From positions 1-53,862 of IMG/VR virus record IMGVR_UViG_3300046425_000186: a stretch of DNA of 53,862 bases, one strand, 5' to 3'. The first letter of the stretch is position 1, and each line of letters opens with the position of its first letter. This document shows, one piece after another, positions 804-47,400 of this stretch. Position numbers and translations under genes: made by a program. Below the pieces are notes generated by a model. It searched no databases. It had not been told where the DNA came from and was given only the letters and a program-made list of their open reading frames with translations. Source of the stretch: a virus (Duplodnaviria > Caudoviricetes).

Positions 804-2360
804 ATGTCAGACAAGATAGTTAAAAATCTTAGCTTTGGGGACGATGCTAGGAATAAAGTTTTTAATGGTATTGACAAATTAGCAAATGCTGTTAGCTCAA
901 CGCTTGGCGCTGGAGGTAGTTGTGTTTTGCTAGAAGATCAATATGGAAATCCAACAATAACAAAAGATGGTGTAACAGTTGCTGAAAGCGTAGTGTTAAT
1001 AGACCCGGTAGAAAATTTAGGTTGTAACTTGTTAAAACAAGCTGCAAAAAAAACTGTTAAAGAAGCGGGAGATGGCACTACCACAGCTACTGTTTTAGCT
1101 CATTCAATACTTTATGAAGCAAATAAAGTTAAATCAGAGCTAAGCGTAAGAGAATTAAAAAAAGATATAAACAATTCTGTTGAAAGAGTTGTTGATTATT
1201 TAAATAAAATATCTATACCTGTTAAAGATGATATGATAAAGCAAATAGCTACTATATCAACAAATAACGACAAAGAACTAGGCGACTTAATAGGCAAAGC
1301 TTTTGAAAACGTTAAAAACACAGGTGTGGTAATAATGGAACAATCTGATTCTGGTAAAACAGAAATAGAAACAATAGAAGGTTCTCAATATTTTAAAGGT
1401 TTAACAAGTCCTCATTTTGTTACTAATAAAATTAAAAAAACCGCAGAGTTAAACAATCCTCTTGTTTTATTAGTAGAAAATAATGTTGAAAACATAAGAC
1501 AGATACAAAGTGTTTTAGAATATGTTATAAAAAACAATAAGTCACTTTTAATAATAGCGGATTTAAGTCCTGAGGTTTTATCAGCATTAGCAATGAATAA
1601 AACAAAAGGAAACATAAAAGTTAATGTTATAGACGCGCCTGTTTTAGGTGTAAATAGAAAACAAATGTTTGATGACATCGCTTTATTAACAGGAGCAACA
1701 TTGATAAACGAAGACTTGGGTGATGATATGGATTTAATAGATATAGATCATCTAGGCACGTGTTTTAAGTCTATAACAAGTCAAACTGATACTATATTAC
1801 AGTTTAAAGAACAAAGTTCTGAATGTGCTGAAATAATTAAAGATATAGAAAAAAAGCTTTTAACTTGCAAAATACCTGATCAAGTTATAAGTTTAGAAAA
1901 AAGATTAGCAATGCTTTCGTCTAGAATATCTGTAGTAAAAGTTGGAGCTAATTCTGAAATAGAACTTAAAGAAAAAATGGATAGAGTGGAAGATGCTATC
2001 TGTGCTACAAAAGCCGCCGTTAAAGAAGGTATTGTTCCAGGTGGTGGTATTGCGCTTCTAAACGCTTCTCAAAAAGTAAAAGCTTATTCATTAGGCGAAA
2101 AACTATTGTTAAGTGCTATAACCGCACCATACAAGACTATTCTTTCTAATGCAAGCGTTGATAACTTAGATTACCCTAATAAAAAAGGTCAAGGTTACGA
2201 CGTGGTTACAGGAAAAATGGTTAATATGATTAAAAGTGGTATTATAGATCCACTGCTAGTTACTAAAAGTGCATTAAAAAATGCGGCTTCTGTGGCAACA
2301 ACTATACTCTCTACTAATTGTGTAATAAACAACGTTAGAATAAATGAAAGCAATAGGTAG
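804..2360 (+). CDS. groEL: Chaperonin GroEL (Cpn60)
   Basis: ITKDGVTVA, AGDGTTTATVLA, DRVEDAICAT, GIVPGGG and GIIDP motifs; lacks the C-terminal GGM tail. Confidence 0.98.
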   Translation: MSDKIVKNLSFGDDARNKVFNGIDKLANAVSSTLGAGGSCVLLEDQYGNPTITKDGVTVAESVVLIDPVENLGCNLLKQAAKKTVKEAGDGTTTATVLAHSILYEANKVKSELSVRELKKDINNSVERVVDYLNKISIPVKDDMIKQIATISTNNDKELGDLIGKAFENVKNTGVVIMEQSDSGKTEIETIEGSQYFKGLTSPHFVTNKIKKTAELNNPLVLLVENNVENIRQIQSVLEYVIKNNKSLLIIADLSPEVLSALAMNKTKGNIKVNVIDAPVLGVNRKQMFDDIALLTGATLINEDLGDDMDLIDIDHLGTCFKSITSQTDTILQFKEQSSECAEIIKDIEKKLLTCKIPDQVISLEKRLAMLSSRISVVKVGANSEIELKEKMDRVEDAICATKAAVKEGIVPGGGIALLNASQKVKAYSLGEKLLLSAITAPYKTILSNASVDNLDYPNKKGQGYDVVTGKMVNMIKSGIIDPLLVTKSALKNAASVATTILSTNCVINNVRINESNR

Positions 2361-4358: not shown

Positions 4359-4513
4359 TGGCAACTTCACCAATAAAAAAAATAAGTTCAGCTTGCAAGT
4401 CTGCAGCTAAAAGAAAGTTTAAAGTATGGCCAAGCGCTTATGCTTCTGGTTGGGGAGTGCGCTGCACAAAAGCTGGAGGTCCTAGTAAATTTGGTAGTAA
4501 AAAGAAAAAATAA
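4358..4513 (+). CDS. Small basic protein (51 aa) absent from the ORF track
   Basis: Translates as MATSPIKKISSACKSAAKRKFKVWPSAYASGWGVRCTKAGGPSKFGSKKKK; TAATG overlaps with both neighbours. Confidence 0.8.
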   Translation: MATSPIKKISSACKSAAKRKFKVWPSAYASGWGVRCTKAGGPSKFGSKKKK

Positions 4514-4884
4514 TGCAAGGATATAAGCAACCTTTTAATTCACCTGTCTTAAAAAGATGTTGGTCTGGTTATTCTGCGGTAGAAGGTAAAGATCCATATA
4601 GTAAAGGTAGCTGTAAAAAAAACTCGCCAATTAAAAAGAAAAAACAAAAAGGCGGAGGAACCACTAAAACTTGTTTACCAGCTTCTAAAATAAGAAGTAT
4701 GAGTAAAGAACAAAGACAAAAGCTGGTTAACTCAAAAAAAGCAGCTGGAGCTAAAGGTAAATATAAAAGATCATCAAAAACTAATGTAAAAGGTGCTCGT
4801 AAAAAAGGCGCTACATTACGTGACTGGTTTGAAAAAGAAGACTGGAGAAGAGTAGATGATCCATCAAAAAAATGCGGAGAATAA
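4513..4884 (+). CDS. Lys-rich small phage protein
   Basis: 123 aa, very basic; CWSGY..GSC, TCLPASK and LRDWFEKEDW segments resemble small basic phage proteins. Confidence 0.75.
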   Translation: MQGYKQPFNSPVLKRCWSGYSAVEGKDPYSKGSCKKNSPIKKKKQKGGGTTKTCLPASKIRSMSKEQRQKLVNSKKAAGAKGKYKRSSKTNVKGARKKGATLRDWFEKEDWRRVDDPSKKCGE

Positions 4885-4887
4885 ATC

Positions 4888-5193
4888 ATGACTTGGCTAA
4901 AAAGAATAAAAGAATCATCATCAATAGAATCACCGTTACATAAAAACGAGCCTAGAAAAACTACCAAAGGTAAGGGTAGAAACTTTAGAACCACTAAAGA
5001 AGGCGCCGGCATGACAGAAAAAGGTGTTAAAGAATATAGAAAGAAAAACCCTGGTAGTAAGCTTAAAACAGCTGTAACAGGAAAAGTAAAACCAGGCAGC
5101 AAAGCTGCTAAACGTAGAAAATCTTTTTGCGCTAGATCCAAAGGTTGGACAGGAGAAAGAGGTAGAGCAGCGCGTAAACGCTGGAAATGTTAA
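4888..5193 (+). CDS. Lys/Arg-rich small phage protein (DUF6321-like)
   Basis: GMTEKGVKEYR..NPGSKLK..RRKSFCAR..RWKC pattern recalled from a common phage family. Confidence 0.7.
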   Translation: MTWLKRIKESSSIESPLHKNEPRKTTKGKGRNFRTTKEGAGMTEKGVKEYRKKNPGSKLKTAVTGKVKPGSKAAKRRKSFCARSKGWTGERGRAARKRWKC

Positions 5194-5204
5194 AATAAAA
5201 AATT

Positions 5205-5549
5205 ATGCCATCACCAATTAGAAAACATCACGACAAAAAAAACGTATTACAAGACGATGGGTCTTCAATACAAGTATCATCAAGCGATCTACAAAAAAGA
5301 GGTGTAGATGCTATTAAAAGTCAAATGTTAAAAAACAATCCTCCAGGAAGTGCAGGAAGAAGAAATGTTTATGACAACTTAGACTGGAAATATGATAACA
5401 CTATACCAAAAACATTTGGAGAAAAAGTAAGTGACTTTGCTAATACTGCTAAGAATTTTGTTAATAAGAATAAATTTAAATTTGCAGATGCTGCAACTGG
5501 TGGATTATTTAGTATTGGTAAAAGCGTAGTAGATAAACTCAAACAATAA
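5205..5549 (+). CDS. Hypothetical protein
   Basis: 114-aa ORF starting MPSPIRK. Confidence 0.7.
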   Translation: MPSPIRKHHDKKNVLQDDGSSIQVSSSDLQKRGVDAIKSQMLKNNPPGSAGRRNVYDNLDWKYDNTIPKTFGEKVSDFANTAKNFVNKNKFKFADAATGGLFSIGKSVVDKLKQ

Positions 5550-5573
5550 CAACACAAAACAAAACAAAACAAA

Positions 5574-6131
5574 ATGGGAAATTATTCAGGAAACCACCCG
5601 AGATATTCTTCGGGACAAAAATATGATGCTAGAGAAGCTTATAATAAAGATCTTACTGCTAAAGCTAGACTACATTATTTAGAAAACAGTGAGCACGATA
5701 AGCATAGTCATCCGGCTAAAAAACATTGCGTAGCTAAAATGTACGGAGAACCAGTTGCTAAAATGTATGGAGATCCAGCTGCTAAAAAATTAGCTGTAAA
5801 AGATATGCCAGATGCTCAAAGAAAAGCTGTAATGGCTAGTAAAGCTGAATCCGCTGCTAAAATGGATCACGCTCCTAAAAATTTAGGTTTTATAAAAGCT
5901 GAAACATTAAAGAAAAATCCAGATGCAACAACAATGGAAGTAGACGGTAAAACAATGCCTATAAAAAACTTAGCTGATTCAAGTGATATTAAAGACATGT
6001 CTGGAGCTTATAACGCAATGGGCGATGCTAATGATCCAGCTATGATGAAAGGAGATCCTATCATGCTTAAAAAGATCCATGCATTAAAAATGAAAGTTGA
6101 CAAAGGACTTGAATTTGGATTAAAAGGATAA
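5574..6131 (+). CDS. Hypothetical protein with internal P-x-x-K/M repeats
   Basis: 185 aa; VAKMYGEP/VAKMYGDP tandem; (CAAAA)n leader. Confidence 0.75.
   Translation: MGNYSGNHPRYSSGQKYDAREAYNKDLTAKARLHYLENSEHDKHSHPAKKHCVAKMYGEPVAKMYGDPAAKKLAVKDMPDAQRKAVMASKAESAAKMDHAPKNLGFIKAETLKKNPDATTMEVDGKTMPIKNLADSSDIKDMSGAYNAMGDANDPAMMKGDPIMLKKIHALKMKVDKGLEFGLKG
5730..5777 (+). repeat. Two-copy imperfect 24-nt in-frame tandem repeat
   Basis: gtagctaaaatgtacggagaacca / gttgctaaaatgtatggagatcca. Confidence 0.85.
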
Positions 6132-6192
6132 CAGTAGGGGTGCTGTAAAACCCAAGTCAAACAAATCATTAACAAAAACAAAACAAAACAAA

Positions 6193-6606
6193 ATGGCAAA
6201 ATTCATTAAATTTAACGTAGTAAACACTGCTGATGCAGCTGCTTTACTAACTCAAGGTACAAAATTAATCAATGTTGATCACATTGGAGACGTGTCTTAC
6301 AATGCTTCAACAGGTGTTGTAACCGCAGTTTTAACTGCTGCTGCAGGTGCTTTTGGGGATGCTGCGGCTTCTGCAGGTATTTCTGCAAGAGTTTTAACAG
6401 CTACTGTTACAACAACAAAAGATGGAGGTGCTGGAGTACCAACTATTACAGACGGTGCTTACGCTCCAGACAAGGCTATCTATTCAGCTATGACTGCTAA
6501 CCCAGGTGGAGTTGTATCTACAGCTCAACTAGGAAAAGATCAAGCTGCTACACCAAAGCAAATGTACTGGTCAACTTGGTCCGTTGGAACTGTTGACGAC
6601 GTATAA
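6193..6606 (+). CDS. Ala/Gly/Thr-rich protein, probable minor structural/decoration protein
   Basis: 137 aa with structural-protein-like composition and codon use similar to the capsid gene; followed by a terminator. Confidence 0.55.
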   Translation: MAKFIKFNVVNTADAAALLTQGTKLINVDHIGDVSYNASTGVVTAVLTAAAGAFGDAAASAGISARVLTATVTTTKDGGAGVPTITDGAYAPDKAIYSAMTANPGGVVSTAQLGKDQAATPKQMYWSTWSVGTVDDV

Positions 6607-6630
6607 AAACTAACCATCAATTAAATATAT

Positions 6631-6662
6631 CCTCGCGGCTCAACAGTCGCGGGGTTTATTTA
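6631..6662 (+). terminator. Intrinsic terminator
   Basis: Hairpin CCTCGCGGCT-caac-AGTCGCGGGG (with G-U pairs) followed by TTTATTT. Confidence 0.75.
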
Positions 6663-6676
6663 TAAAAAAACAATAT

Positions 6677-7144
6677 ATGGGTTCACCTATAAAACACTGT
6701 TGGAGTTCTTTAATGCACAGTTCTAGTTGGAACAAAGCAAGAAAAAGATCTGGCTCTGGAACTGGAAATGACGCTTCGTTGAAAGCAGCTAAAAAGAAAA
6801 GAACTTCTCCTTTAAAAATGGGTTTTAAAATGAAAGGGTCTCCATATATTAAAGAAGAATACAATACACCTATAATGCATGTAGACATGGGTGATGATAC
6901 TTTAGGTATGGCTACTAGTAATGGAAGTATACTTATAAACAAAGACATAAAAGACCCAAAGCAAAAACAAGACGTTATAGATCATGAAATGGTTCATATT
7001 AAGCAAATAAAAGATGGTCGACTTGCTTATGACGATGATAACGTTTATTGGAAAGGTAAAAAATATTCTAGATCTCAAATGAACGAAGGAGCTAAAAATT
7101 TACCTTGGGAAAAAGAAGCTTACGATAAAACTAAAAATGCTTAG
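6677..7144 (+). CDS. Zincin-like metalloprotease
   Basis: HEMVH (HExxH) plus a downstream PWEKEAY glutamate; possible internal start at MGFKMKGSP. Confidence 0.75.
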   Translation: MGSPIKHCWSSLMHSSSWNKARKRSGSGTGNDASLKAAKKKRTSPLKMGFKMKGSPYIKEEYNTPIMHVDMGDDTLGMATSNGSILINKDIKDPKQKQDVIDHEMVHIKQIKDGRLAYDDDNVYWKGKKYSRSQMNEGAKNLPWEKEAYDKTKNA

Positions 7145-7146
7145 TT

Positions 7147-9045
7147 ATGGGATTAAAAAAAGGTTATTTTAAAAATTTAAAAGGTGGTGTGAATCATAGT
7201 CCACTTAGAATGCACAAAGGTAAACCTCATAGTAAAAAAGATTTTAAAGGTTTACTAGCACATAAGCTTGCTACTCAAGAATACTCTTCAGTCGATGAAA
7301 GACTACAAAACCTACCCGCTTCAGATAATCTAGCTATAGAAAAATTTATAAAAAACAACAATATATCTTCAGAAAATTTAAAAAACAATGCGGCTGTAAT
7401 CAGAGAGCGGAACAAGAAGAAAATACAAGAAAATCAAAACAAAAACAGAGCAACTATTAGCCAAGGGCCTGTAACAGCACAAGAAAAAAAACAAAGAGAA
7501 ATAGAAAACAAAAGAGGTGAAGAGATTTATAACGCATCATTAAACTTGCTAGAAAGACCTTTAGCTTACTTAAGTGATCCCTCTGCTATTTTAGGTGATA
7601 TGGGTATTAATTCTTTTTTAGGTTTTGATACTGGAAACACAACACAGTTAGCTAGAGATATAGAAACAATGAGGCAAAATCCTGACTTGTCTTATTTTGA
7701 TAAACTAAAAGCTAAAACCAAAATGGGTGTTGATATGGTTCCAGCAGCAACTCTTAATACCGCGTTAGGTATGATAGGCGCTGGAGGTGTGGGCACTGGA
7801 GTCAAAGGAGCTACTAGTTATGTTGGAAATGTTATAAATAACACTGTTAATCCTTTAGCTGGACTAGGAAAACCTACACTAAACGCATTAAGCGGAGCCT
7901 TAACAAACAATATTGACGACGTTGGTGTAGATGCTGTTCAACAAGCAATAAACACTCAAAGAGGAACTACGGGTGTAAATTACAATCTAGACAATATAAG
8001 AAATATTGGAGATTTTTCTTTTGATATTAGTAGTTTACCTGAAAGAACTACAACTGATAACGCCGCGCTTGATTTTATTAATCAAAAAATACTTGGATCT
8101 GACAAAAAATTAGGTATCGCATTAGAACCATTAGCAAGAGAATTAAGAAAAGGAGCTACTACGGTTAGAGAAGCCAGAGAGTTCGCTGCTAATAACATGC
8201 AGTCAGATCAAGGGCAACAAAGATTGACTGATTTAATTACAGAAACAATTGATAGTAGAGCTAAGATTCCAGCTAACCTTAACTCGTTTAAAGACTTTGA
8301 ATTAGTTAAAAAAATGTCCCCTAAAACTAAACAAGAATATGTTGATTATTTTAAAAAACGCCACCAAGAAAAGTTAACTAACGCAAAAAGTATTAATGAA
8401 TTAGTAGATGAACTAGCTTTTGATTCCCAAGGTAACTATAATCCAAGCGCAGCAGTTAAAGCTATTTACGGAAACAATAAAAATATTCCAAAATCTATAA
8501 TTGATAATGCTTTTTGGGATAGTAAAACTAAAACTCCAGTTTTAGGTGCTAATTTTACAGGATCAAGCCCAACAGCATATCATGAATTACTTGGTCACGG
8601 TGGTCAAGAAATTGATGGTTTAGGATATATAAGTTCTGATAATACATTACGAAATCTATCACAAAGAAACACTTTTACACCAGATCAGGATTATTTTAAT
8701 ACCGGTAGTGGAGGTAGAGAACCATACGCTTTTGCTCAAGAATTAAAAAAATCACTTTATGACGAAGGTCTTCTTAAAAACAATAATGGAACTTGGGAAA
8801 CTATCACGCCAGAAATGCTTGAAAAAGCTAGAAATATATTTAAAAAATCACCAAAAGGAAATATATCTGGACCACAAGATGGTGGAAGGTTTTTTAATGA
8901 AGTTAGAGCATTAGAATTTGTAGAAGATCTTGAAGGTTTATCTAAAGAAATGAATAAATTAATTGGTGCAAACAATCCTGGTGATCCAGATGGTAAAAAC
9001 AAATTTGATATGCTAAAAGCTAACTCAATGGAAGTTAACACGTAA
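7147..9045 (+). CDS. Large hypothetical protein with C-terminal zincin-like motif
   Basis: 632 aa; AYHELLGHG and downstream REPYA; central Gly/Ala-rich hydrophobic stretch. Confidence 0.65.
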   Translation: MGLKKGYFKNLKGGVNHSPLRMHKGKPHSKKDFKGLLAHKLATQEYSSVDERLQNLPASDNLAIEKFIKNNNISSENLKNNAAVIRERNKKKIQENQNKNRATISQGPVTAQEKKQREIENKRGEEIYNASLNLLERPLAYLSDPSAILGDMGINSFLGFDTGNTTQLARDIETMRQNPDLSYFDKLKAKTKMGVDMVPAATLNTALGMIGAGGVGTGVKGATSYVGNVINNTVNPLAGLGKPTLNALSGALTNNIDDVGVDAVQQAINTQRGTTGVNYNLDNIRNIGDFSFDISSLPERTTTDNAALDFINQKILGSDKKLGIALEPLARELRKGATTVREAREFAANNMQSDQGQQRLTDLITETIDSRAKIPANLNSFKDFELVKKMSPKTKQEYVDYFKKRHQEKLTNAKSINELVDELAFDSQGNYNPSAAVKAIYGNNKNIPKSIIDNAFWDSKTKTPVLGANFTGSSPTAYHELLGHGGQEIDGLGYISSDNTLRNLSQRNTFTPDQDYFNTGSGGREPYAFAQELKKSLYDEGLLKNNNGTWETITPEMLEKARNIFKKSPKGNISGPQDGGRFFNEVRALEFVEDLEGLSKEMNKLIGANNPGDPDGKNKFDMLKANSMEVNT

Positions 9046-9056
9046 TATTTCGCAAT

Positions 9057-9070
9057 AACATGTGATAATA
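9057..9070 (+). promoter_or_regulatory. Motif A copy 2 (AACATGTGATAATA), upstream of gldL
   Basis: Matches the consensus; a weaker copy AACACGTAATATT lies at 9037-9049. Confidence 0.55.
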
Positions 9071-9119
9071 CTATTGTAAGGGTTTATATTGAATTCTTAT
9101 AACAATTAAATTAAATATT

Positions 9120-9554
9120 ATGTTAAAAAACTTAAGCTTAACAAACATGCTCTATGGAATTGGAGCTGCGATTGTTATTTTAGGAGCATTGTTTAAAATA
9201 CAACACTGGAATGGTGGCTCTTTATTATTAACAATAGGTATGGTAACAGAGGCGGTTGTATTTATTTATTCTGCTTTTGAAAAAAAGAAAAAAGAAATAG
9301 ATGAGTCACGCACAACTGATCCATACAATCCTAAAGCTATTATAGAGGCTCAAAAAGAATACGTTAAAGAAATTAAAGATGCTATTAAAAATATTTCTTT
9401 AATTAATGAAGTTCATAAAAATCAACTTAAACTTGTTAAAGGCTCAACTGATGCTTATAAAAAAATTAATACAGAAGCTAATTCTTTAGCTCAACACACT
9501 TATTTTATGAGTAAAACTTATTATTCAATATTAAAAGCAATGAAAAGCAAGTAA
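9120..9554 (+). CDS. gldL: Phage-encoded GldL/PorL homologue (T9SS/gliding motor inner-membrane subunit), shortened
   Basis: NMLYGIGAAIVILGALFKIQHW..LLTIGMVTEAVVFIYSAFE matches the GldL two-TM signature including the TM2 Glu; C-terminal YYSILKAM resembles the GldL YGxMLxAM end. Confidence 0.9.
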   Translation: MLKNLSLTNMLYGIGAAIVILGALFKIQHWNGGSLLLTIGMVTEAVVFIYSAFEKKKKEIDESRTTDPYNPKAIIEAQKEYVKEIKDAIKNISLINEVHKNQLKLVKGSTDAYKKINTEANSLAQHTYFMSKTYYSILKAMKSK

Positions 9555-9556
9555 CT

Positions 9557-9958
9557 ATGAAAAAAATTTGGCAATGGCTTACAGGTTCCGTCATAAAAGA
9601 AGTTGGCGAGGTTTTAGACAATCTTACAACAACTAAAGAGGAAAAGCTTGAAGCTCAGCGTCTTATTACAGAAATATTAGAAAAAGCCGACAAAGAAGCA
9701 CAAGAGCAAGTTACAGCAAGGTGGCAAGCGGATATGGCGTCAGATAGTAAACTATCTAAAAACATACGCCCTATGGTCTTAATATACCTAACAGTAATAT
9801 TTACAGCTTGTGCTTTTTTTCATGGTAATATAGGTGAATTTAAAATATCAGAAGAATATATACCAATATTCCAAACACTTCTAGTAACTGTTTATGGTGC
9901 TTATTTTGTTGGAAGAAGTTGGGAAAAAACAAAAAAAATAACAAACAAAAAAGATTAA
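9557..9958 (+). CDS. Holin (GTA 3TM-holin-like family)
   Basis: RWQADMASDSKLSKNIRP followed by two hydrophobic helices, YFVGRSWEK and a basic tail. Confidence 0.75.
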   Translation: MKKIWQWLTGSVIKEVGEVLDNLTTTKEEKLEAQRLITEILEKADKEAQEQVTARWQADMASDSKLSKNIRPMVLIYLTVIFTACAFFHGNIGEFKISEEYIPIFQTLLVTVYGAYFVGRSWEKTKKITNKKD

Positions 9959-9961
9959 ATA

Positions 9962-10267
9962 ATGGGACAATACGGAAATCAACCTGATTTTATAACTAAC
10001 GACATACAAACTGTAACACCAGTTGCCGCAGCTTCTTTAACTGCAGCAGATTCATTAAATGGATCAATTATATATGTAGGTACAAGCTCTAGCGCTGATC
10101 TTCAAGTTATACCTGCTGGATCTGTTGGATCTAGTGGTTCTGGTTTACCTGGTTTAGCTCAAGCAATTACGTTTAAAAATGTACCGCAAGGAGAGTGGTT
10201 TCCTGTGGTTGTTGACTACGTTTTGTCTAATGCTACAACAGCAACCGACTTGGTAGCAGGAAAATAA
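9962..10267 (+). CDS. Small Gly/Ser/Ala-rich protein, possibly structural
   Basis: 101-aa ORF with beta-rich-looking composition. Confidence 0.6.
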   Translation: MGQYGNQPDFITNDIQTVTPVAAASLTAADSLNGSIIYVGTSSSADLQVIPAGSVGSSGSGLPGLAQAITFKNVPQGEWFPVVVDYVLSNATTATDLVAGK

Positions 10268-10311
10268 AGTATAGAAAATCTATACGTTTTTAAATTAAAT
10301 TAAATTAAATT

Positions 10312-10560
10312 ATGGCTAAAAAAGTTAAAAAACTTAAAAAAGAAGAATTAGAATTGTTAAATAAGCAACAAGCAGATATAGGTGAAATGCTTAAAAGTCT
10401 TGGTATTTTAGATGTTCAAAAAATGAATTTACACTCTAGAGTGAAGATACTAAGTGACGAAATTGAATCTACTAAAAAAGATTTAGAAGATAAATATGGT
10501 TCTGTTAATATAGATTTATCAACAGGTGAAATAACTCCAATAGAAAAAGAAAATGCCTAG
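10312..10560 (+). CDS. Coiled-coil hypothetical protein
   Basis: 82 aa, heptad pattern ending YGSVNIDLSTGEI; (TAAAT)4 leader. Confidence 0.75.
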   Translation: MAKKVKKLKKEELELLNKQQADIGEMLKSLGILDVQKMNLHSRVKILSDEIESTKKDLEDKYGSVNIDLSTGEITPIEKENA

Positions 10561-10780
10561 TAATATAAGAAAAATTAGCATTGGTTCTGATTATAAAAAC
10601 GATGCAATGCATTATTCTGTTGGTCAAATAGTTTACGGTGGTCACGAAATATCACATATACTTTTAGATGAATTTGATAATTCTTATAATATACACATAA
10701 AAAAGAACAACGAGGTATTGCCATGGAAGAAGTTTAATTCTAACATGGCTATATCAGTTGAGTATGATTTAGAGTACTAA
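10553..10780 (+). CDS. Hypothetical protein
   Basis: 75 aa, overlaps both neighbours. Confidence 0.75.
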   Translation: MPSNIRKISIGSDYKNDAMHYSVGQIVYGGHEISHILLDEFDNSYNIHIKKNNEVLPWKKFNSNMAISVEYDLEY

Positions 10781-11385
10781 TGAAAAGTCTATATGATTTT
10801 ATTGTAAAACCTATAGGCGAAACTTACAACAATGAAATTAATATTGATAAAAAAAAATTAATATTAAATAGTAAGATTGAAAGTTGGAAGTTTGTAAACA
10901 GGTTTGCAGAAGTAGTAGAAATACCAAAAGCATTTAAAACACCTATAAAAAAAGGTGACACGGTCATTGTTCATCAAAATGTTTTTAGAACATTTTATGA
11001 TATGAAAGGTCGAAAAAAAAAATCAAGATCTTATTTTAAAGATAATTTATACTTTTGTTCAGTAGATCAAATTTATTTATATAAAAATAAAAATGGTTAT
11101 AATTCTTTTGGTGAAAGATGTTTTATACAACCTATAAAAAACAATGACTATTTAACTGCAGATAAAGAGCAAAAGCTTGTTGGTATATTAAAATACGGAA
11201 ATAAGTCCTTAGAGTCGCTAGAAATAAACGAGGGAGACATTGTGGGTTATACGCCTGACGGTGAATGGGAATTTTTAATTGAAAACAAGCGACTATATTG
11301 TATGAAATCAAATGATATTGTAATTAAATATGAATACAAAGGAGACGAAAAAGAATATAATCCAAGCTGGTCAAAAAGCAGTTGA
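10780..11385 (+). CDS. Hypothetical protein with two tandem GroES-like halves
   Basis: Half 1: FIVKP..AEVVEIP..IKKGDTVIV; half 2: CFIQP..GILKYG..INEGDIVGY..LYCMKSNDIV. Confidence 0.55.
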   Translation: MKSLYDFIVKPIGETYNNEINIDKKKLILNSKIESWKFVNRFAEVVEIPKAFKTPIKKGDTVIVHQNVFRTFYDMKGRKKKSRSYFKDNLYFCSVDQIYLYKNKNGYNSFGERCFIQPIKNNDYLTADKEQKLVGILKYGNKSLESLEINEGDIVGYTPDGEWEFLIENKRLYCMKSNDIVIKYEYKGDEKEYNPSWSKSS

Positions 11386-11605
11386 AGAATTAATTAAAGT
11401 AGCAAAAGAAGCTATTGTTGACTCAGATGACGACATATCAGCTGACAGACTTAAAAATGCCGCTGCTACTAAAAAACTAGCTATATTTGACGCTTTTGAA
11501 ATATTGAGTCGTATTGAAGAAGAAGAAAACTTGTTAAACGAAAAACCTAAAGAAGTTAAAGAAGAAAAAACTTTTAAGGGTTTTGCTGAAGGAAGATCTA
11601 AGTAA
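11330..11605 (+). CDS. Putative terminase small subunit
   Basis: 91-aa helical protein directly upstream of, and overlapping, terL; positional inference only. Confidence 0.5.
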   Translation: MNTKETKKNIIQAGQKAVEELIKVAKEAIVDSDDDISADRLKNAAATKKLAIFDAFEILSRIEEEENLLNEKPKEVKEEKTFKGFAEGRSK

Positions 11606-13815
11606 TGTACGAACAGAGTCTATATAAAGTTTTAAAAGATCATATAAAACCTAAAGTTCTTAAAAGAATGAATAGGTATAAAAAGTGGGAATATGGTTAT
11701 AATGAAGAACACGACATTGTAGTTATAAGTAAAGATGGTACTATTGGTGAGGTTTATGAAATACAAAATTTAAAAATTGCTTTACCTAAAGCTGATAATG
11801 TTTATTCTTTTGATTCTGACACATGGGAATATACTGAATACCCAAAAGAATTAAAAAAAATAAAATCAGTTTTTGATTGGGAAGAATATCCAATAGAATT
11901 TAAAGAAAAATGGTATGATTACATTGATAACGAATTTAATAAAAGAGAACAAGGGTTTTGGTTCTATAATAAGGGCTTGGCTACTTACATTACTGGTACT
12001 CACTTTATGTACTTGCAGTGGAGCAAAATTGACGTTGGGCAGCCAGACTTTAGGGAATCAAATAGATTATTCTACATTTTCTGGGAAGCTTGCAAAGCAG
12101 ACTCACGATGTTATGGAATGTGTTATCTTAAAAACAGACGTTCCGGATTTTCTTTTATGTCTTCAGCGGAAACCGTTAACATGGCGACAATTACGTCAGA
12201 TGCACGGTACGGTATCTTGTCTAAGTCTGGCCCCGATGCTAAGAAAATGTTCACAGACAAAGTCGTACCTATATCCGTCAACTACCCGTTCTTTTTTAAA
12301 CCCATCCAGGACGGTATGGACAGGCCCAAAACAGAACTTGCCTATAGAGTACCAGCGACAAAATACACAAGAAGAAAACTTGAAACAAACCAAAAGGTTC
12401 AAGAACTTGACGGGCTTGACACAACAATAGATTGGAAAAACACCGGTGATAACTCTTATGATGGTGAAAAACTAAAACTACTTGTACACGATGAAAGTGG
12501 TAAGTGGGAAAAACCTAATAACATATTAAACAACTGGAGAGTTACAAAAACCTGTTTAAGATTAGGTGGTAGAATTATAGGTAAATGCATGATGGGATCA
12601 ACATCAAATGCACTGGATAAAGGAGGTAGTAATTTTAAAAAACTATATAATGATTCAGACGTCAGAGAAAGAAACGCCAATGGAGAGACTCGCTCAGGAT
12701 TATATTCTTTGTTCATACCTATGGAATGGAACTACGAAGGCTACATTGATTCTTATGGCTTACCTGTCTTCGAAACTCCAAGTGAAAATACGAAAGGTCC
12801 GCATGGAAGAAAAATAAAAATAAGTGTACTAGAGTATTGGCAAAATGAAGTTGATGGATTAAAAAAAGATCAAGATGCTTTAAATGAGTTTTATAGACAA
12901 TTTCCAAGAACCGAACAACACGCTTTTAGAGATGAAGCAAAACAATCTTTATTTAATTTAACAAAGATATATGAGCAAATAGATTTTAATCAAGATTTTA
13001 AAAATGACCTGCTCGTTACAAAAGGATCTTTTCAATGGCAAAACGGAGTTAAAGATAGTAAAGTTTTATTTGTTCCTAATAAAAATGGAAGATTTAACAT
13101 ATCATGGGTACCTCCTGTAAGATTACAAAATATAGTAATAAATAAAAACGGAATTAAATATCCAGGTAATGAGCACATTGGTGCTTTTGGATGTGATCCA
13201 TATGATATATCTGGTACAGTAGACTCTAGAGGATCAAATGGTTCTCTACATGGTTTAACTAAATTTTCAATGGAAGACGCGCCTAATAGTATGTTTTTTT
13301 TAGAATACATAGCTAGACCTCAAACAGCTGAGATATTTTTTGAAGATGTACTTATGGCTTGTATATTTTATGGTATGCCAATATTAGCTGAAAATAACAA
13401 ACCAAGATTATTATATCATTTTAAAAGAAGAGGTTATAGAGGTTATTCTATGAACAGACCAGATAAGGTGTATATGAAATTGTCAGTTACAGAGAAAGAA
13501 ATAGGTGGTATACCTAATTCTAGTCAAGATATAAAACAAGCGCATGCCGCAGCTATAGAGTCTTATATAGAAACTTATGTAGGTAATTTAGGTGAAAAAT
13601 ACGGTGATATGTATTTTCAAAAAACATTAGAAGATTGGTCGAGATTTGATATAAACAACAGAACAAAACACGATGCTTCTATAAGTTCCGGTCTAGCAAT
13701 AATGGCTTGTAATAAAAACTTATACACACCTGTATTTAAAAGAAAAGTAGAGGTTAAAAATTTAGGTTTTAAAAAATACGATAATAAAGGATTTAGTTCA
13801 AAAATAATAAGATAA
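11605..13815 (+). CDS. terL: Terminase large subunit
   Basis: Walker A-like KNRRSGFS, Walker B LLVHDE, GST motif III, RNase H-like FGCDPY and HDASIS; precedes the portal gene. Confidence 0.92.
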   Translation: MYEQSLYKVLKDHIKPKVLKRMNRYKKWEYGYNEEHDIVVISKDGTIGEVYEIQNLKIALPKADNVYSFDSDTWEYTEYPKELKKIKSVFDWEEYPIEFKEKWYDYIDNEFNKREQGFWFYNKGLATYITGTHFMYLQWSKIDVGQPDFRESNRLFYIFWEACKADSRCYGMCYLKNRRSGFSFMSSAETVNMATITSDARYGILSKSGPDAKKMFTDKVVPISVNYPFFFKPIQDGMDRPKTELAYRVPATKYTRRKLETNQKVQELDGLDTTIDWKNTGDNSYDGEKLKLLVHDESGKWEKPNNILNNWRVTKTCLRLGGRIIGKCMMGSTSNALDKGGSNFKKLYNDSDVRERNANGETRSGLYSLFIPMEWNYEGYIDSYGLPVFETPSENTKGPHGRKIKISVLEYWQNEVDGLKKDQDALNEFYRQFPRTEQHAFRDEAKQSLFNLTKIYEQIDFNQDFKNDLLVTKGSFQWQNGVKDSKVLFVPNKNGRFNISWVPPVRLQNIVINKNGIKYPGNEHIGAFGCDPYDISGTVDSRGSNGSLHGLTKFSMEDAPNSMFFLEYIARPQTAEIFFEDVLMACIFYGMPILAENNKPRLLYHFKRRGYRGYSMNRPDKVYMKLSVTEKEIGGIPNSSQDIKQAHAAAIESYIETYVGNLGEKYGDMYFQKTLEDWSRFDINNRTKHDASISSGLAIMACNKNLYTPVFKRKVEVKNLGFKKYDNKGFSSKIIR

Positions 13816-27126: not shown

Positions 27127-28398
27127 ATGGCAGTAAAAACACCAGTAAAATACTACAATACCTTTGTTTTAAAAAAAATAATACAAGGAGATGTTTCACC
27201 TATTTACAACTGGTATATAGAAGAGGCTAGAATTAGAGGTGGTTATAACAATGTTCAAACAGGTTTATCACCTAGAGCTTATTTAAGAGCTGAAGATAAT
27301 TTGCAAGAAGAACTTGGTAATTCTTTAATATATTCAGGTATATTAAACTCTAGAACAGGTGTAAACCAAACCAACCAATTTCCTTCTGGTGAAGAAATAA
27401 CTAGAACTGTTGACCCTCAAAAAGGCACTGTACAGAAATTATATGCTGAAGATACTAATTTAATTATATTTCAAGAAAACAAAGTTAATAGAGCTCTTAT
27501 AGATAAAGACGCTATATATACTCAAGAAGGTCAACCTATACAAACAGCTTCTAACGTTGTTATTGGAGCTATAACACCTTATGCTGGTGAATTTGGTATA
27601 TCTAAAAACCCTGAAAGTTTTGCAGTATATGGATATAGAAAATACTTTACAGACTCTAATCAAGGCGCTGTACTTAGATTGTCACAAGACGGTATAACAG
27701 AGATATCATCGTATGGTATGTATGATTATTTTAGAGATAATTTCGCAACGTTAAGTGGCGGACTTTCTATTGGGGGTTGGGATATACATAATAAGTGCTA
27801 TACACTGTCGTTACAATCAGCAGCATCAGGAACTCCAGTTCAAACACTTAGTTTTGATGAGCAAATTCAAGGTTGGACTAGTAGATATAGTTATAGCCCT
27901 AACAATATAGTTAGTGTGCAAAATAATTTTTACACAACAAATGAAGGAGGTATATATCAACACTATAGAAGCAATCTACCTAGAGCTAATTTTTACGGAA
28001 CACAATATGACGCTAGCGTTAAAACTATATTTAACACTCAACCTTCATTAGTTAAAAACTTTCAGACAATTAACTACGAAGGTGGTAATAATTGGGCTAT
28101 GACTAGCATATCAACAAACTCTGGTGATTCAGCTTTACCTATAGCAGTATATGTTATGCCTACAACAATAACTGAGCTAGATGATCAGTTGTTTAAAAAT
28201 GAATTTAAAAGAAAAGAAGATAAATACTTTGCTAATTTAGTTAATTCAACTGCTTTTTCACAAGGTGAAATTGTTTTTGGTAATTCTATTTCAGGAATAA
28301 AAGGGTATACTGCAGAAGTAACTTTTACGTGCAGTAATGCGCAAGACAAAAGCGAATTGTTCGCTATATCAACAAATTACAAAGAGTCTTCATATTAA
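27127..28398 (+). CDS. Tail (nozzle/muzzle-type) protein, C-terminal-like part
   Basis: 423 aa; LIYSG..NQF, YAGEFGISKNPESF, YFTD..GAVLRLS.DGIT.IS beta-propeller-type segments. Confidence 0.65.
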   Translation: MAVKTPVKYYNTFVLKKIIQGDVSPIYNWYIEEARIRGGYNNVQTGLSPRAYLRAEDNLQEELGNSLIYSGILNSRTGVNQTNQFPSGEEITRTVDPQKGTVQKLYAEDTNLIIFQENKVNRALIDKDAIYTQEGQPIQTASNVVIGAITPYAGEFGISKNPESFAVYGYRKYFTDSNQGAVLRLSQDGITEISSYGMYDYFRDNFATLSGGLSIGGWDIHNKCYTLSLQSAASGTPVQTLSFDEQIQGWTSRYSYSPNNIVSVQNNFYTTNEGGIYQHYRSNLPRANFYGTQYDASVKTIFNTQPSLVKNFQTINYEGGNNWAMTSISTNSGDSALPIAVYVMPTTITELDDQLFKNEFKRKEDKYFANLVNSTAFSQGEIVFGNSISGIKGYTAEVTFTCSNAQDKSELFAISTNYKESSY

Positions 28399-38604: not shown

Positions 38605-38961
38605 ATGAAACACTTTAAAATAGAAGAATTTGATTGTCCAGGTTTGCCAGGTAGTGGCGAAATAATGGATCAGTGTTTTTTAAAAATGCTAGACAAAGCA
38701 AGAGAAATATACGGTAGACCTATGCGTGTAAACTCAGGTTATAGAACAAAAGAACATAATGCTAAGATTGGTGGGGTTAAAAACTCTTCTCATATACTAG
38801 GCATTGCTGCAGACATAAGCTGTAAAACATCTAAAGATAGATTTGATATGGTGAACGCCTTTATAGAGGCTGGATTTAAAAGAATAGGTGTAGGAAGTAG
38901 TTTTATACATGTAGACATAGACGAAAACAAATCACAAAACTTAATTTGGACTTATTATTAA
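38605..38961 (+). CDS. Endolysin, peptidase M15 family
   Basis: NSGYR..HN..GG..SSH..G.AADI..FIHVD zinc D-Ala-D-Ala peptidase motifs. Confidence 0.9.
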   Translation: MKHFKIEEFDCPGLPGSGEIMDQCFLKMLDKAREIYGRPMRVNSGYRTKEHNAKIGGVKNSSHILGIAADISCKTSKDRFDMVNAFIEAGFKRIGVGSSFIHVDIDENKSQNLIWTYY

Positions 38962-38970
38962 AATAAAAAA

Positions 38971-39126
38971 ATGGATTTTCAACAAATAAAACTTTACATT
39001 ATAAATGCTTCAACTCTAGGTGTTACAACCTTTACAAATATTGAAATGGGTTTAAAGATAATATTATTATTGGTAACAATAGGTTACACTCTAGATAAAT
39101 GGATTAAACTAAAAAAAAATAAATAA
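38971..39126 (+). CDS. Small membrane protein (51 aa), holin candidate; absent from the ORF track
   Basis: MDFQQIKLYIINASTLGVTTFTNIEMGLKIILLLVTIGYTLDKWIKLKKNK; hydrophobic helix, basic tail, adjacent to the endolysin. Confidence 0.7.
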   Translation: MDFQQIKLYIINASTLGVTTFTNIEMGLKIILLLVTIGYTLDKWIKLKKNK

Positions 39127-47075: not shown

Positions 47076-47085
47076 TTAATTTAAT

Positions 47086-47400
47086 TTAAAACGGTAGATC
47101 ATCTTCAACCGCGTCAGGAGCAACAACAGCCGCTCTTGTTGGTTCATCTTGTCTTGGAGCTGCTGCTACATTTTCTCCGTTTGTCCAAACCACTTGAACA
47201 TTACCTAAATAAGTTTTAGCTGCTTTACTTTCTCTTTCTTCTTTTGTTTGACTTATAACAATTGGTCCTTGATTTCCAAATTGATCTAAGTCATCATTTA
47301 AAGTTATTACTATAGGAAGATATTTACCTTTTTTACCTTCAATAACTTTTGATTTATCAATATTACTTAAATTGATACTTGCTTTAATTATACTTGCCAT
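47086..47400 (-). CDS. ssb: Single-stranded DNA-binding protein
   Basis: 104 aa, OB-fold-like strands, acidic tail ending EDDLPF; lies in the recombination/replication cluster. Confidence 0.8.
   Translation of the reverse strand: MASIIKASINLSNIDKSKVIEGKKGKYLPIVITLNDDLDQFGNQGPIVISQTKEERESKAAKTYLGNVQVVWTNGENVAAAPRQDEPTRAAVVAPDAVEDDLPF

What the first reader, a model, noticed from the sequence alone, without database searches (positions are those of the whole stretch)
9120..9554. Stand-alone phage GldL: candidate hijacker of the host T9SS/gliding motor
Seen: a 144-aa protein with the GldL two-TM signature. It keeps the polar intramembrane residues N9, Y12, K26 and E44 and a GldL-like C-terminal helix (YYSILKAM). 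The cytoplasmic coiled coil is shorter than in cellular GldL (about 215 aa in F. johnsoniae, from memory). No gldK, gldM or gldN is present in the window, and the gene has its own motif-A site. Known: GldL5-GldM2 is the proton-driven motor for type IX secretion and gliding; the TM2 glutamate (E49 in F. johnsoniae) is essential; gld mutants of F. johnsoniae resist several phages. Inference: the phage subunit co-assembles into host pentamers and jams or retunes the motor. That could give superinfection exclusion, stop motility and secretion, or spare proton-motive force. I know of no characterised phage GldL.
Basis: partly seen in the sequence, partly recalled or inferred. Interest (0 to 1): 0.88.

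Follow-up and report, generated by a model that had tools for sequence, protein, structure and literature searches.

The report
Phage-borne mini GldL motor subunit
A marine phage of flavobacteria carries a shortened copy of GldL, the stator protein of the proton-driven motor behind gliding and type IX secretion, and close relatives of this phage carry the partner GldM as well, so these viruses appear to bring parts of a host rotary motor with them.

Summary
The ORF at 9120-9554 (+) is real and is a true GldL derivative. It scores above the curated cut-offs of Pfam GldL_N and NCBIfam TIGR03513. It keeps the equivalents of F. johnsoniae N10, Y13, K27, H30, E49 and E59. It lacks the cytoplasmic 'cage' motif and about 60 further residues.

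The window is a podophage record of the Cellulophaga phi38:1 / Flavobacterium 'elemo' group. Contigs from independent runs bridge both gene junctions, so the gene is not an assembly chimera.

Short GldLs of this type form one clade nested in Flavobacteriaceae GldL. Their membrane hairpin is under strong purifying selection.

A sister phage lineage (TerL 74% identical) has, at the same genome position, a mini-GldL followed by a full-length four-domain GldM. Short GldLs are also the only copy in two cellular gldKLMN operons.

No assembly or phenotype was shown.

I found no paper on phage-encoded GldL or GldM. Interest is high.

The parts
9120..9554 (+). Mini-GldL gene, 144 aa: a host-derived stator subunit of the type IX secretion / gliding motor with an internal deletion.
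   Evidence: ORF. GldL_N 87.2 bits, TIGR03513 91.6 bits against a 68.3 cut-off. PDB GldL/PorL hits. Alignments A1 and A4. dN/dS 0.15-0.40 over the whole gene.
9138..9278 (+). Two-helix membrane hairpin: residues 7-28 and 33-53, with the periplasmic loop K26-H29-W30. It carries N9, Y12, K26, H29 and E44.
   Evidence: AF2 model helices H7-28 and H33-53. Invariant columns of A4. About 64-71% identical to cellular Flavobacteriaceae GldL over residues 5-63. dN/dS 0.02-0.25.
9279..9329 (+). Short, low-confidence linker (residues 54-70). It stands where cellular GldL has the cage motif and about 60 more residues. E54 corresponds to Fj E59.
   Evidence: Gap in alignments A1 and A4. pLDDT below 50 at residues 57-66. 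Mapping to 6ys8.
9330..9551 (+). Cytoplasmic helical part (residues 71-143). It holds the conserved AQKEY..N helix (Y81, A88, N96) and the terminal Y-x-S-I-L-K-A-M helix typical of this phage clade.
   Evidence: AF2 predicts one helix, 71-143. Second stretches against 7sau, 7sat and 6ys8. Alignment. dN/dS 0.42-1.03.
9046..9119 (+). 74-nt intergenic region upstream of the gene. It is a breakpoint of mosaicism between related phages. An AT-rich word lies at 9106-9116.
   Evidence: Sequence. Loose ends of contigs at 9098/9099 in three runs. The word is not above chance.
9557..9958 (+). Holin gene, 133 aa, starting 2 nt after the GldL stop codon.
   Evidence: phrog_3427 holin, E 9e-28. PF11351 GTA_holin_3TM, 27.5 bits against a 24.8 cut-off.
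7147..9045 (+). 632-aa protein of unknown function with an HExxH motif (HELLGH). It is highly variable between otherwise near-identical relatives. In the window type and in L187, a large homologue of this protein lies directly upstream of GldL.
   Evidence: ORF and sequence. No Pfam family. Synteny and 40-76% identity. 32% identity to the L187 protein over 333 residues.
38605..38961 (+). Endolysin candidate (Peptidase_M15_3), 29 kb away from the holin.
   Evidence: PF08291, 64.4 bits.
11605..13815 (+). Large terminase subunit, used to place the phage among relatives.
   Evidence: phrog_6681, E 1.8e-164. 87 phage records match, all with named hosts in Flavobacteriia.

Best explanation
The gene encodes a streamlined but functional GldL. 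It was captured from a Flavobacteriaceae host by an ancestor of this group of marine podophages.

Proposed mechanism: after infection, the protein inserts into the inner membrane and forms the pentameric ring around a GldM dimer. In this phage the GldM would be the host's. In the sister lineage it would be the phage's own. The resulting proton-conducting 5:2 units would plug into the host's outer-membrane T9SS/gliding apparatus. The phage would thereby keep the motor under its own control during infection, sustaining or retuning secretion and gliding, perhaps freed from the host-side inputs that act on the deleted cytoplasmic segment.

Shown: the protein is a GldL; it keeps all residues known to be needed for function; it is under selection; it sits on real phages; sister phages carry gldL plus gldM.

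Inferred: assembly with GldM, activity, and the benefit to the phage.
For: 1. Full family membership, with N9, Y12, K26, H29, E44 and E54 matching Fj N10, Y13, K27, H30, E49 and E59. These positions were shown by mutation to matter for gliding or secretion. Source: passages of preprint 10.1101/2020.05.11.089193 and of PMC8986121.

2. N9, K26, H29 and E44 are invariant, and Y12 nearly so, in 52 aligned phage and cellular sequences. The membrane hairpin has dN/dS 0.02-0.25, against 0.42-1.03 for the cytoplasmic part.

3. The sister phage L190/L191 is 74% identical in TerL and 62% in portal. At the same position upstream of the 75-aa / GroES-like / TerL block it has a 133-aa mini-GldL directly followed by a 530-aa GldM. 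That GldM has all four Pfam GldM domains and keeps R9 and Y17. A third contig holds a 91%-identical GldM.

4. Short GldLs are the only copy in cellular gldK-L-M-N operons. One is 172 aa, in a 1.9-Mb Flavobacteriaceae genome. One is 151 aa, on the Cardinium cBtQ1 plasmid (passages of PMC4007549).

5. In F. johnsoniae, deleting the cage gave only a small gliding defect, and replacing it with a GSS linker gave none (section 6 of preprint 10.1101/2022.01.28.478170).

6. The gene is widespread and persistent. 49 of the 120 listed 90%-identity clusters are short phage-type forms or fragments of them. 16 IMG/VR contigs carry this type.
Against: - No call shows assembly with GldM or GldL, or any activity.
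- The deletion here is larger than the cage deletion tested in F. johnsoniae. It removes about 60 further residues whose role is unknown.
- The cytoplasmic part evolves fast (dN/dS 0.42-1.03). Its terminal helix has changed from VYGGML.AM to YxSILKAM. Both would also fit a decoy that has lost host contacts.
- This lineage lacks gldM. If gldM was once present and then lost, the function may have shifted.
- The phage carries no recognisable T9SS cargo, so the benefit of a running motor is unexplained.
- The gene is packed against the holin in all 13 window-type loci examined.
- Whether the short cellular GldLs are functional has not been tested. The Cardinium paper itself doubts that secretion works there.
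Confidence: 0.5

Rival explanations
1. Dominant-negative subunit. The mini-GldL mixes into host GldL rings, or captures host GldM, and yields motors that cannot be anchored or regulated. This stops gliding and T9SS export. The possible gains are superinfection exclusion, because receptors are no longer delivered or moved, or saving of proton-motive force.
For: - The membrane hairpin is 64-71% identical to host-type GldL, so co-assembly is plausible by homology.
- The cytoplasmic tail, which the 2020 preprint proposes holds GldL stationary, is shortened by about 60 residues and lacks the cage.
- The cytoplasmic part is weakly constrained and its C-terminal motif is altered.
- Mutations in gliding/T9SS genes give phage resistance in Flavobacterium. 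I saw only the titles and abstract openings of PMC9804748 and 10.1101/2020.10.02.323337 in the search listing.
Against: - A plug does not need the proton-relay residues, yet Y12, K26, H29, E44 and E54 are kept. They could, however, also serve binding.
- Sister phages carry a complete GldM with R9 and Y17 next to a mini-GldL. That is more than a poison needs.
- Short GldLs work as sole copies in two cellular operons, at least as judged by their retention.
Confidence: 0.25
2. Lysis-timing or proton-motive-force device. GldL rings, without or with GldM, conduct or gate protons and so tune when the adjacent holin fires. Alternatively the protein binds the holin as an antiholin-like partner.
For: - The stop codon lies 2 nt before the holin start.
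- GldL is directly followed by the holin homologue in 13 of 13 window-type loci examined.
- In L187 an amidase-type endolysin candidate lies between GldL and the holin. That name rests on my reading of the sequence, not on a family search.
- In L016-L020 the module of large protein, GldL and holin varies together, while the flanks are 90-97% identical.
Against: - The 13 loci are one lineage, so the adjacency is a single observation.
- In L191 the holin sits about 3.7 kb upstream in its own M15 / 99-aa / holin block, separated from GldL by three genes, and GldL is followed by GldM instead.
- The window's endolysin is 29 kb away.
- The relative MW202828.1 has neither gene at this site.
- The protein shows no similarity to holin or antiholin families. 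Its only PHROG hit is a weak tape-measure match.
Confidence: 0.1
3. Passenger or decaying remnant of a captured gldLM fragment, with no function of its own.
For: - The internal deletion and, in this lineage, the absence of gldM.
- A further-truncated 109-110-aa form exists.
Against: - The frame is intact in all copies seen.
- dN/dS is 0.02-0.25 on the hairpin.
- The gene is conserved down to 58% identity across 16 IMG/VR contigs and dozens of metagenome clusters.
- It is better conserved than the neighbouring holin in several relatives: 73-87% against 54%.
Confidence: 0.05

Closest known systems
Cellular GldL/PorL, stator of the GldL5GldM2 motor (F. johnsoniae GldL, PDB 6ys8; also 7sau, 7sat, 7saz, 7sax)
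   Same: - Two-helix hairpin with N, Y, K, H, E and E at the functional positions.
- The two C-terminal cytoplasmic helices.
- Scores above the curated family cut-offs.
   Different: - 144 aa against about 205-215 aa in Flavobacteriaceae.
- The cage motif and about 60 further residues are missing.
- The terminal helix reads YxSILKAM.
- It is encoded by a phage, beside a holin, without gldK, gldM or gldN.
Mini-GldL plus GldM pair of the sister phages (IMG/VR loci L190/L191, L195; protein cluster P0289)
   Same: - Same phage group and the same genome position.
- Same kind of internal deletion in GldL.
- One common origin of all phage mini-GldLs is not rejected (p-AU 0.627).
   Different: - That lineage keeps a full-length GldM and the cellular-type C-terminus VYGGMLSAM.
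- Its holin lies elsewhere.
- Free tree searches do not join it to the window's clade.
Naturally short cellular GldLs: Cardinium cBtQ1 (151 aa, plasmid gldKLMN) and a 1.9-Mb Flavobacteriaceae genome (172 aa)
   Same: The middle of the cytoplasmic domain is missing, while the hairpin and terminal helices are kept.
   Different: - They sit in gldK-L-M-N operons as the only copy.
- The 172-aa form keeps a cage-like stretch, EYKWERAFPVL.
Phage-encoded T9SS cargo proteins ('Cryophage', PMC7468147)
   Same: A phage of Bacteroidota exploiting the host T9SS (passages read).
   Different: Those are substrates with C-terminal sorting domains. Here it is a part of the machine itself, and no such cargo is found in the window.
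Host-derived auxiliary genes of phages, such as cyanophage psbA, and phage inhibitors of type IV pili (Tip, Aqs1). Both are recalled from memory and come from no call.
   Same: They work like either of the two main readings: a phage copy of a host membrane-machine subunit that sustains the machine, or a phage protein that disables a motility organelle.
   Different: Different protein families. No ion-driven motor subunit is involved in either, as far as I recall.

Membership tests
GldL/PorL (Pfam PF22827 GldL_N; NCBIfam TIGR03513) | N-terminal two-helix hairpin scoring above the Pfam gathering threshold | tested here: met
   87.2 bits against 24, residues 11-64. 88.6 bits in the six-frame search of the record.
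GldL/PorL (Pfam PF22827 GldL_N; NCBIfam TIGR03513) | Whole-protein equivalog model above its curated cut-off | tested here: met
   TIGR03513 91.6 bits against 68.3, two stretches.
GldL/PorL (Pfam PF22827 GldL_N; NCBIfam TIGR03513) | Invariant TM2 glutamate (Fj E49) and the functional Y13, K27, H30, N10 and E59 | tested here: met
   E44, Y12, K26, H29, N9 and E54 by alignment to 6ys8 and to 51 relatives. Roles taken.
GldL/PorL (Pfam PF22827 GldL_N; NCBIfam TIGR03513) | Membrane-proximal cytoplasmic cage (Fj E64-L74; Asp/Trp/Tyr network) | tested here: not met
   The DWSLVYPEL stretch is absent; the window has EIDESRTTDPYNP. Cage described.
GldL/PorL (Pfam PF22827 GldL_N; NCBIfam TIGR03513) | Full-length cytoplasmic domain of about 150 residues | tested here: not met
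   About 90 residues. Query 63-75 stands for 6ys8 68-138. Gap in A1 and A4.
GldL/PorL (Pfam PF22827 GldL_N; NCBIfam TIGR03513) | Conserved C-terminal helices (AQKKY..N..LN..Y and ..LN.VYGGML.AM) | tested here: met
   Y81, A88 and N96 are conserved. The terminal helix is present in the altered form YYSILKAM.
GldL/PorL (Pfam PF22827 GldL_N; NCBIfam TIGR03513) | Encoded in a gldK-gldL-gldM-gldN operon | tested here: not met
   No GldM, GldK or GldN in the window, and no GldM in four relatives' records. The sister phage L191 has gldL-gldM.
GldL/PorL (Pfam PF22827 GldL_N; NCBIfam TIGR03513) | Forms a pentamer around a GldM dimer and conducts protons | not testable with these tools
   This needs co-purification, cryo-EM or genetics. 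No call here bears on it.
Host-derived auxiliary gene of a phage | Lies on a bona fide phage genome and not on an assembly chimera | tested here: met
   TerL, portal and GroEL are present, and the record is a virus record. Contigs of other runs lie on 8375-11000, 8910-10612 and 8000-9493 without a difference.
Host-derived auxiliary gene of a phage | Nested within the homologues of the host group, and under purifying selection | tested here: met
   The clade of short forms (SH-aLRT 91 and 95) lies inside the Flavobacteriaceae side of the tree (99*). dN/dS.
Holin / antiholin | Similarity to a lysis family, or adjacency to lysis genes conserved across lineages | tested here: not met
   No lysis family matched. 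The adjacency holds in the window type only (13 of 13 loci) and not in L187 or L191.

The most novel reading that the evidence does not exclude
A group of marine flavobacterial podophages encodes parts of an ion-driven rotary motor and uses them as a working, virus-controlled engine. Some lineages carry stator plus axle (gldL plus gldM). The window's lineage carries a minimal stator that captures the host axle. During infection the phage-made units would drive the host's type IX secretion/gliding apparatus on the phage's terms, or drive a phage-specific envelope process. As far as my searches went, this would be the first virus-encoded proton-motor component. It would also be a naturally minimised GldL that shows which parts of the stator are dispensable.
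Probability: 0.45. Interest if true: 0.88.

Novelty: new variant of a known kind. Interest (0 to 1): 0.78.

Why it matters
GldLM is one of the few known classes of ion-driven rotary motor. It powers both protein export and gliding in Bacteroidota, which are major degraders of marine polymers.

A phage copy of its stator, and in sister phages of stator plus axle, would mean that viruses manipulate this motor directly. That adds a new kind of host take-over in an abundant marine phage group. It also bears on how infection changes particle colonisation, enzyme secretion and phage receptor display.

For motor research, the phage and short cellular forms are natural deletion experiments. They mark about 60 cytoplasmic residues and the cage as dispensable or regulatory. 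The hairpin is kept nearly unchanged.

The question is directly testable in F. johnsoniae genetics.

Tried and rejected
**Complex prediction.** I sent four copies of window GldL residues 1-68 with two copies of Winogradskyella GldM residues 1-225, each as its own alignment. The answer was 'no answer (no support, and no evidence against)', with scores 0.10 and 0.14 against a mark of 0.32. I do not use it either way. The native 5:2 stoichiometry could not be sent.

**Expression.** No RNA holder was listed among the sequencing runs, so expression is untested.

**Promoter or 'motif-A'.** The upstream word TTAAATTAAAT is not above chance. I ran no promoter scan, because the tool's consensus is sigma-70 and, from memory, Bacteroidota promoters differ.

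**Phage database.** A tblastn search of 50,697 phage records gave one hit, MT839621.1. Its ORFs look like a bacterial porK-porL-porM-porN fragment filed as 'Bacteriophage sp.', by my reading of the ORFs and with no family search. I rejected it as a phage GldL. Records very near the window may be left out of that collection.

**Context of other short forms.** The genomic context of the 125-129-aa forms (P0046, P0063, P0104, P0159) and of the 149-aa P0193 cluster could not be obtained. Whether they are phage-borne rests only on contig sizes of 55-67 kb.

**Upstream 632-aa protein.** It has no Pfam family. There is no BLAST similarity between it and the 308-aa HExxH protein of L191, nor to the 648-aa protein of MW202828.1. 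The Atlas gave only leads under 0.9, namely viral hypotheticals and LPD23 at 0.88. I name no family.

**PorX docking.** The published PorL hydrophobic patch (P. gingivalis residues 279-298) lies in a PorL-specific tail that I could not map onto this protein. I make no claim about PorX binding.

**Origin of the two phage types.** Free trees place the gldLM-type apart from the window's clade. The AU test does not reject one clade (after an unfinished run). The number of captures is therefore left open.

**Not seen.** The extended-data phenotype tables of the 2020 preprint are images, and supplements are closed, so I did not see the full mutant table.
Full report
**The observation**

The ORF at 9120-9554 on the + strand is there as described: 144 aa with an ATG start. 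It is a GldL by every sequence test I could run.
- Pfam GldL_N scores 87.2 bits against a cut-off of 24.
- The NCBIfam equivalog TIGR03513 (PorL/GldL) scores 91.6 bits against 68.3, in two stretches.
- Five solved GldL/PorL chains match, at E 2e-17 to 1e-7.

The alignment to F. johnsoniae GldL (6ys8) puts N9, Y12, K26, H29 and E44 on N10, Y13, K27, H30 and E49. A second stretch aligns residues 75-131 with 6ys8 residues 138-194. E54 falls on E59 by my count.

The literature gives the roles of these residues.
- E49 is invariant and essential, Y13, K27 and H30 substitutions slow or impair the motor, and N10 was targeted (passages of preprint 10.1101/2020.05.11.089193).
- E49A and E59 substitutions abolish adhesion or gliding (passage of PMC8986121).

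**What is missing**

Alignments with cellular GldLs (A1 with 17 rows; A4 with 52 rows) show one internal deletion. It removes the membrane-proximal cage motif (DWSLVYPEL in Flavobacteriaceae) and about 60 following residues.

The hairpin, the SAFE motif, the AQKKY..N helix and the terminal helix remain. The terminal helix reads YYSILKAM in place of VYGGML.AM.

An AlphaFold2 model (mean pLDDT 72.7, pTM 0.28) gives helices 7-28 and 33-53, a low-confidence linker, and one long helix 71-143.

In F. johnsoniae, deleting the cage alone caused a small gliding defect, and a GSS linker of equal length caused none (section 6 of preprint 10.1101/2022.01.28.478170). The larger deletion seen here has not been tested in what I read.

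**The genome**

The window is a whole IMG/VR virus record: linear, 84% complete by CheckV. It encodes:
- GroEL, a GroES-like protein, TerL, portal and a virion protein;
- a Cpn10;
- a crAss muzzle C-terminal domain and an M15 endolysin at 38605-38961.

TerL matches 87 phage records. All hosts named in them are Flavobacteriia (Flavobacterium, Cellulophaga, Tenacibaculum, Maribacter). The best match is MW202828.1 at 64%.

This fits 'group 2' of putative Flavobacteriaceae phages, with GroEL and related to Cellulophaga phi38:1 (passage of PMC5332604).

None of those cultured relatives matched the GldL. A tblastn search of all 50,697 phage records gave a single hit. By my reading of its ORFs, that record is a bacterial porKLMN fragment filed as a phage.

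The window holds no GldM, GldK, GldN or T9SS sorting domain. Four relatives' records, one of them 93% complete, also lack GldM.

**Not an artefact, and common**

The stretch 7200-12000 is held by 20 listed run rows.
- 15 rows hold half or more of the sampled words.
- The rows come from 16 studies.
- 7 rows may be the source of the window.

I laid four runs that are not marked as possible sources.
- A 2951-nt contig lies on 8375-11000 without a difference.
- A 1703-nt contig lies on 8910-10612 without a difference.
- A 1771-nt contig lies on 8000-9493 without a difference.

Both junctions of the gene are therefore bridged independently.

The protein search gave 1246 proteins at E <= 0.001 among 1273 candidates. 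49 of the 120 listed clusters are short phage-type forms or fragments of them. 16 IMG/VR contigs carry this type.

**Evolution**

There are three size classes: 140-148 aa, 125-129 aa and 109-110 aa. All share the derived terminal motif Y-x-S-[IVM]-L-K.
- In trees with 80 cellular GldLs the short forms are one clade (SH-aLRT 91; 95).
- The clade sits on a long branch inside the Flavobacteriaceae side of the tree (99*).
- These are quick searches, and long-branch warnings apply.

The closest cellular hairpins are in Winogradskyella, Olleya, Bizionia, Psychroserpens, Kordia and relatives, at 64-71% over residues 5-63.

Among 401 Flavobacteriaceae genomes, 391 have a match. None resembles the phage form along its whole length, except for one short cellular GldL.

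Nei-Gojobori dN/dS was computed for 8 window-versus-relative pairs and 3 further pairs.

| Region | dN/dS |
|---|---|
| whole gene | 0.15-0.40 |
| residues 1-56 | 0.02-0.25 |
| remainder | 0.42-1.03 |

The pairs are not independent. Recombination inside the gene is evident: for window against L002, dS is 1.04 in the first part and 0.083 in the second.

**Context**

In 13 of 13 window-type loci the gene order is: large variable protein, GldL, holin, a small protein, an 82-aa protein, a 75-aa protein, the GroES-like protein, a 91-aa protein, TerL.

In L016-L020 the flanking genes are 90-97% identical to the window. The large protein (about 40%), GldL (58%) and holin (35%) are not. This part is therefore a mosaic module. 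Contig loose ends at 9098/9099 in three runs agree with that.

The holin call rests on phrog_3427 (E 9e-28) and PF11351.

The adjacency does not hold outside this lineage.
- In L187 a 110-aa GldL is separated from the holin by three genes, one of which I read as an amidase-type endolysin.
- The relative MW202828.1 has neither gene at this site.

**The decisive relative**

The representative search (1683 proteins at E <= 0.001) revealed further short GldL families. One of them is a 133-aa cluster, P0289, seen on 96 contigs, the longest 60 kb. It lies on IMG/VR contigs L190/L191.

These contigs are the same phage group: TerL 74%, portal 62%, GroEL 59% and holin 72% identical to the window.

Directly upstream of the 90-aa, 75-aa, GroES-like, 90-aa, TerL block they encode the mini-GldL, followed after 42 nt by a 530-aa GldM.
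- That GldM has all four Pfam GldM domains above their thresholds.
- It keeps the invariant R9 and Y17.
- It is 38-42% identical to cellular GldMs over its full length.

L190 and L191 are 99.7% identical and come from two samples. L195, from a third sample, holds a 91%-identical GldM with the same downstream genes.

In L191 the holin lies in a separate block of M15, a 99-aa gene and the holin, about 3.7 kb upstream.

Free trees do not join this GldL to the window's clade. A tree that holds all phage forms together is not rejected and scored higher (p-AU 0.627).

**Short GldLs in cells**

- A 1.9-Mb Flavobacteriaceae genome has a 172-aa GldL as its only match, inside gldK-gldL-gldM-gldN.
- The 151-aa GldL of Cardinium cBtQ1 lies in a gldKLMN operon on a multicopy plasmid (passages of PMC4007549).

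Loss of the middle of the cytoplasmic domain is therefore tolerated where GldL is the only copy. Function has not been tested in either case.

**Mechanism**

Shown:
- the protein is a GldL;
- it keeps all residues known to be needed;
- its hairpin is strongly constrained;
- it is on real, abundant phages;
- sister phages carry stator and axle together.

Inferred: the protein forms rings around GldM and conducts protons.

I rank the readings as follows.

| Reading | Estimate | Main point |
|---|---|---|
| Active, streamlined stator that keeps or retunes the host T9SS/gliding motor under phage control | about 0.5 | favoured by the evidence listed above |
| Lysis or proton-motive-force role with the holin | about 0.1 | the adjacency is confined to one lineage |
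| Functionless remnant | about 0.05 | contradicted by the constraint on the hairpin |

The benefit of a running motor is unexplained. No T9SS cargo is encoded here, whereas phage-encoded cargo is known elsewhere (PMC7468147).

**Novelty**

I ran four full-text searches:
- 'GldL' with 'phage' gave 49 papers;
- 'GldL' with 'viral' gave 44;
- 'type IX secretion' with 'phage-encoded' and 'gliding' gave 8;
- 'gliding motility' with 'auxiliary metabolic gene' and 'virus' gave 7.

I read passages of the likeliest papers. None describes a phage-encoded GldL or GldM. Subscription papers and supplements were not covered.

**Limits**

- The host is inferred, not known.
- The contexts of two other short families could not be fetched.
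- No expression data were obtained.

Noticed in passing
L191:8001-10037 (also L190; L195:2-991): Sister phages carry a 133-aa mini-GldL directly followed by a full-length GldM (530 aa) with four domains. It lies at the genome position where the window has GldL and the holin.
   Followed up: yes
L102 (MT839621.1) 4477-9817: A GenBank record labelled 'Bacteriophage sp.' from faecal samples reads as a bacterial porP-like / porK / porL / porM / porN fragment. This is my reading of the ORFs. It looks like host DNA filed as phage.
   Followed up: partly
window 7147-9045: A 632-aa protein with an HExxH motif and no Pfam family lies directly upstream of GldL. It is the most variable gene of the region, at about 40% identity in relatives whose flanks are 90-97% identical. 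The Atlas gives only weak leads: viral hypotheticals, and LPD23 at 0.88.
   Followed up: partly
window 9120-9554 against L002:6001-6432: Recombination inside the GldL gene. Synonymous divergence is 1.04 in codons 1-56 but 0.083 in the rest.
   Followed up: no
window 9098-9099 and 9557: In several runs, contigs of related phages diverge from the window exactly at these gene boundaries (loose ends). These are mosaic breakpoints around GldL.
   Followed up: no
window 10290-10310 (+) and 47074-47089 (-): Short (TTAAA)n runs lie immediately upstream of the start codons at 10312 and 47075. A single unit pair lies upstream of GldL (9106-9116) and near 771-805, before GroEL. As a word it is not above chance.
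   Followed up: partly
window 804-2360, 2344-2604, 10780-11385: The phage encodes GroEL, a Cpn10 and a second, 201-aa GroES-like protein.
   Followed up: no
window 27127-28398: A crAss-virus muzzle protein C-terminal domain (PF25729, 36.7 bits) occurs in a 54-kb marine flavobacterial podophage.
   Followed up: no
window 38605-39117: The M15 endolysin candidate lies 29 kb from the holin. It is followed by a small ORF (38971-39117) that is 49% identical to a 55-aa hydrophobic ORF found beside the lysis genes of L187.
   Followed up: no
L203:4662-5180 (G358:C18): A 1.9-Mb Flavobacteriaceae genome has a naturally short, 172-aa GldL as its only copy, inside gldK-L-M-N.
   Followed up: yes
G007 (Olleya marilimosa): C4:274530-274625, C4:120917-121033, C2:283357-283818: Besides its GldL, this genome has four weak GldL_N matches (24.9-31.7 bits, just over the cut-off) in other small ORFs, two of them in one 200-aa frame. 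These may be GldL_N-like hairpin paralogues.
   Followed up: no
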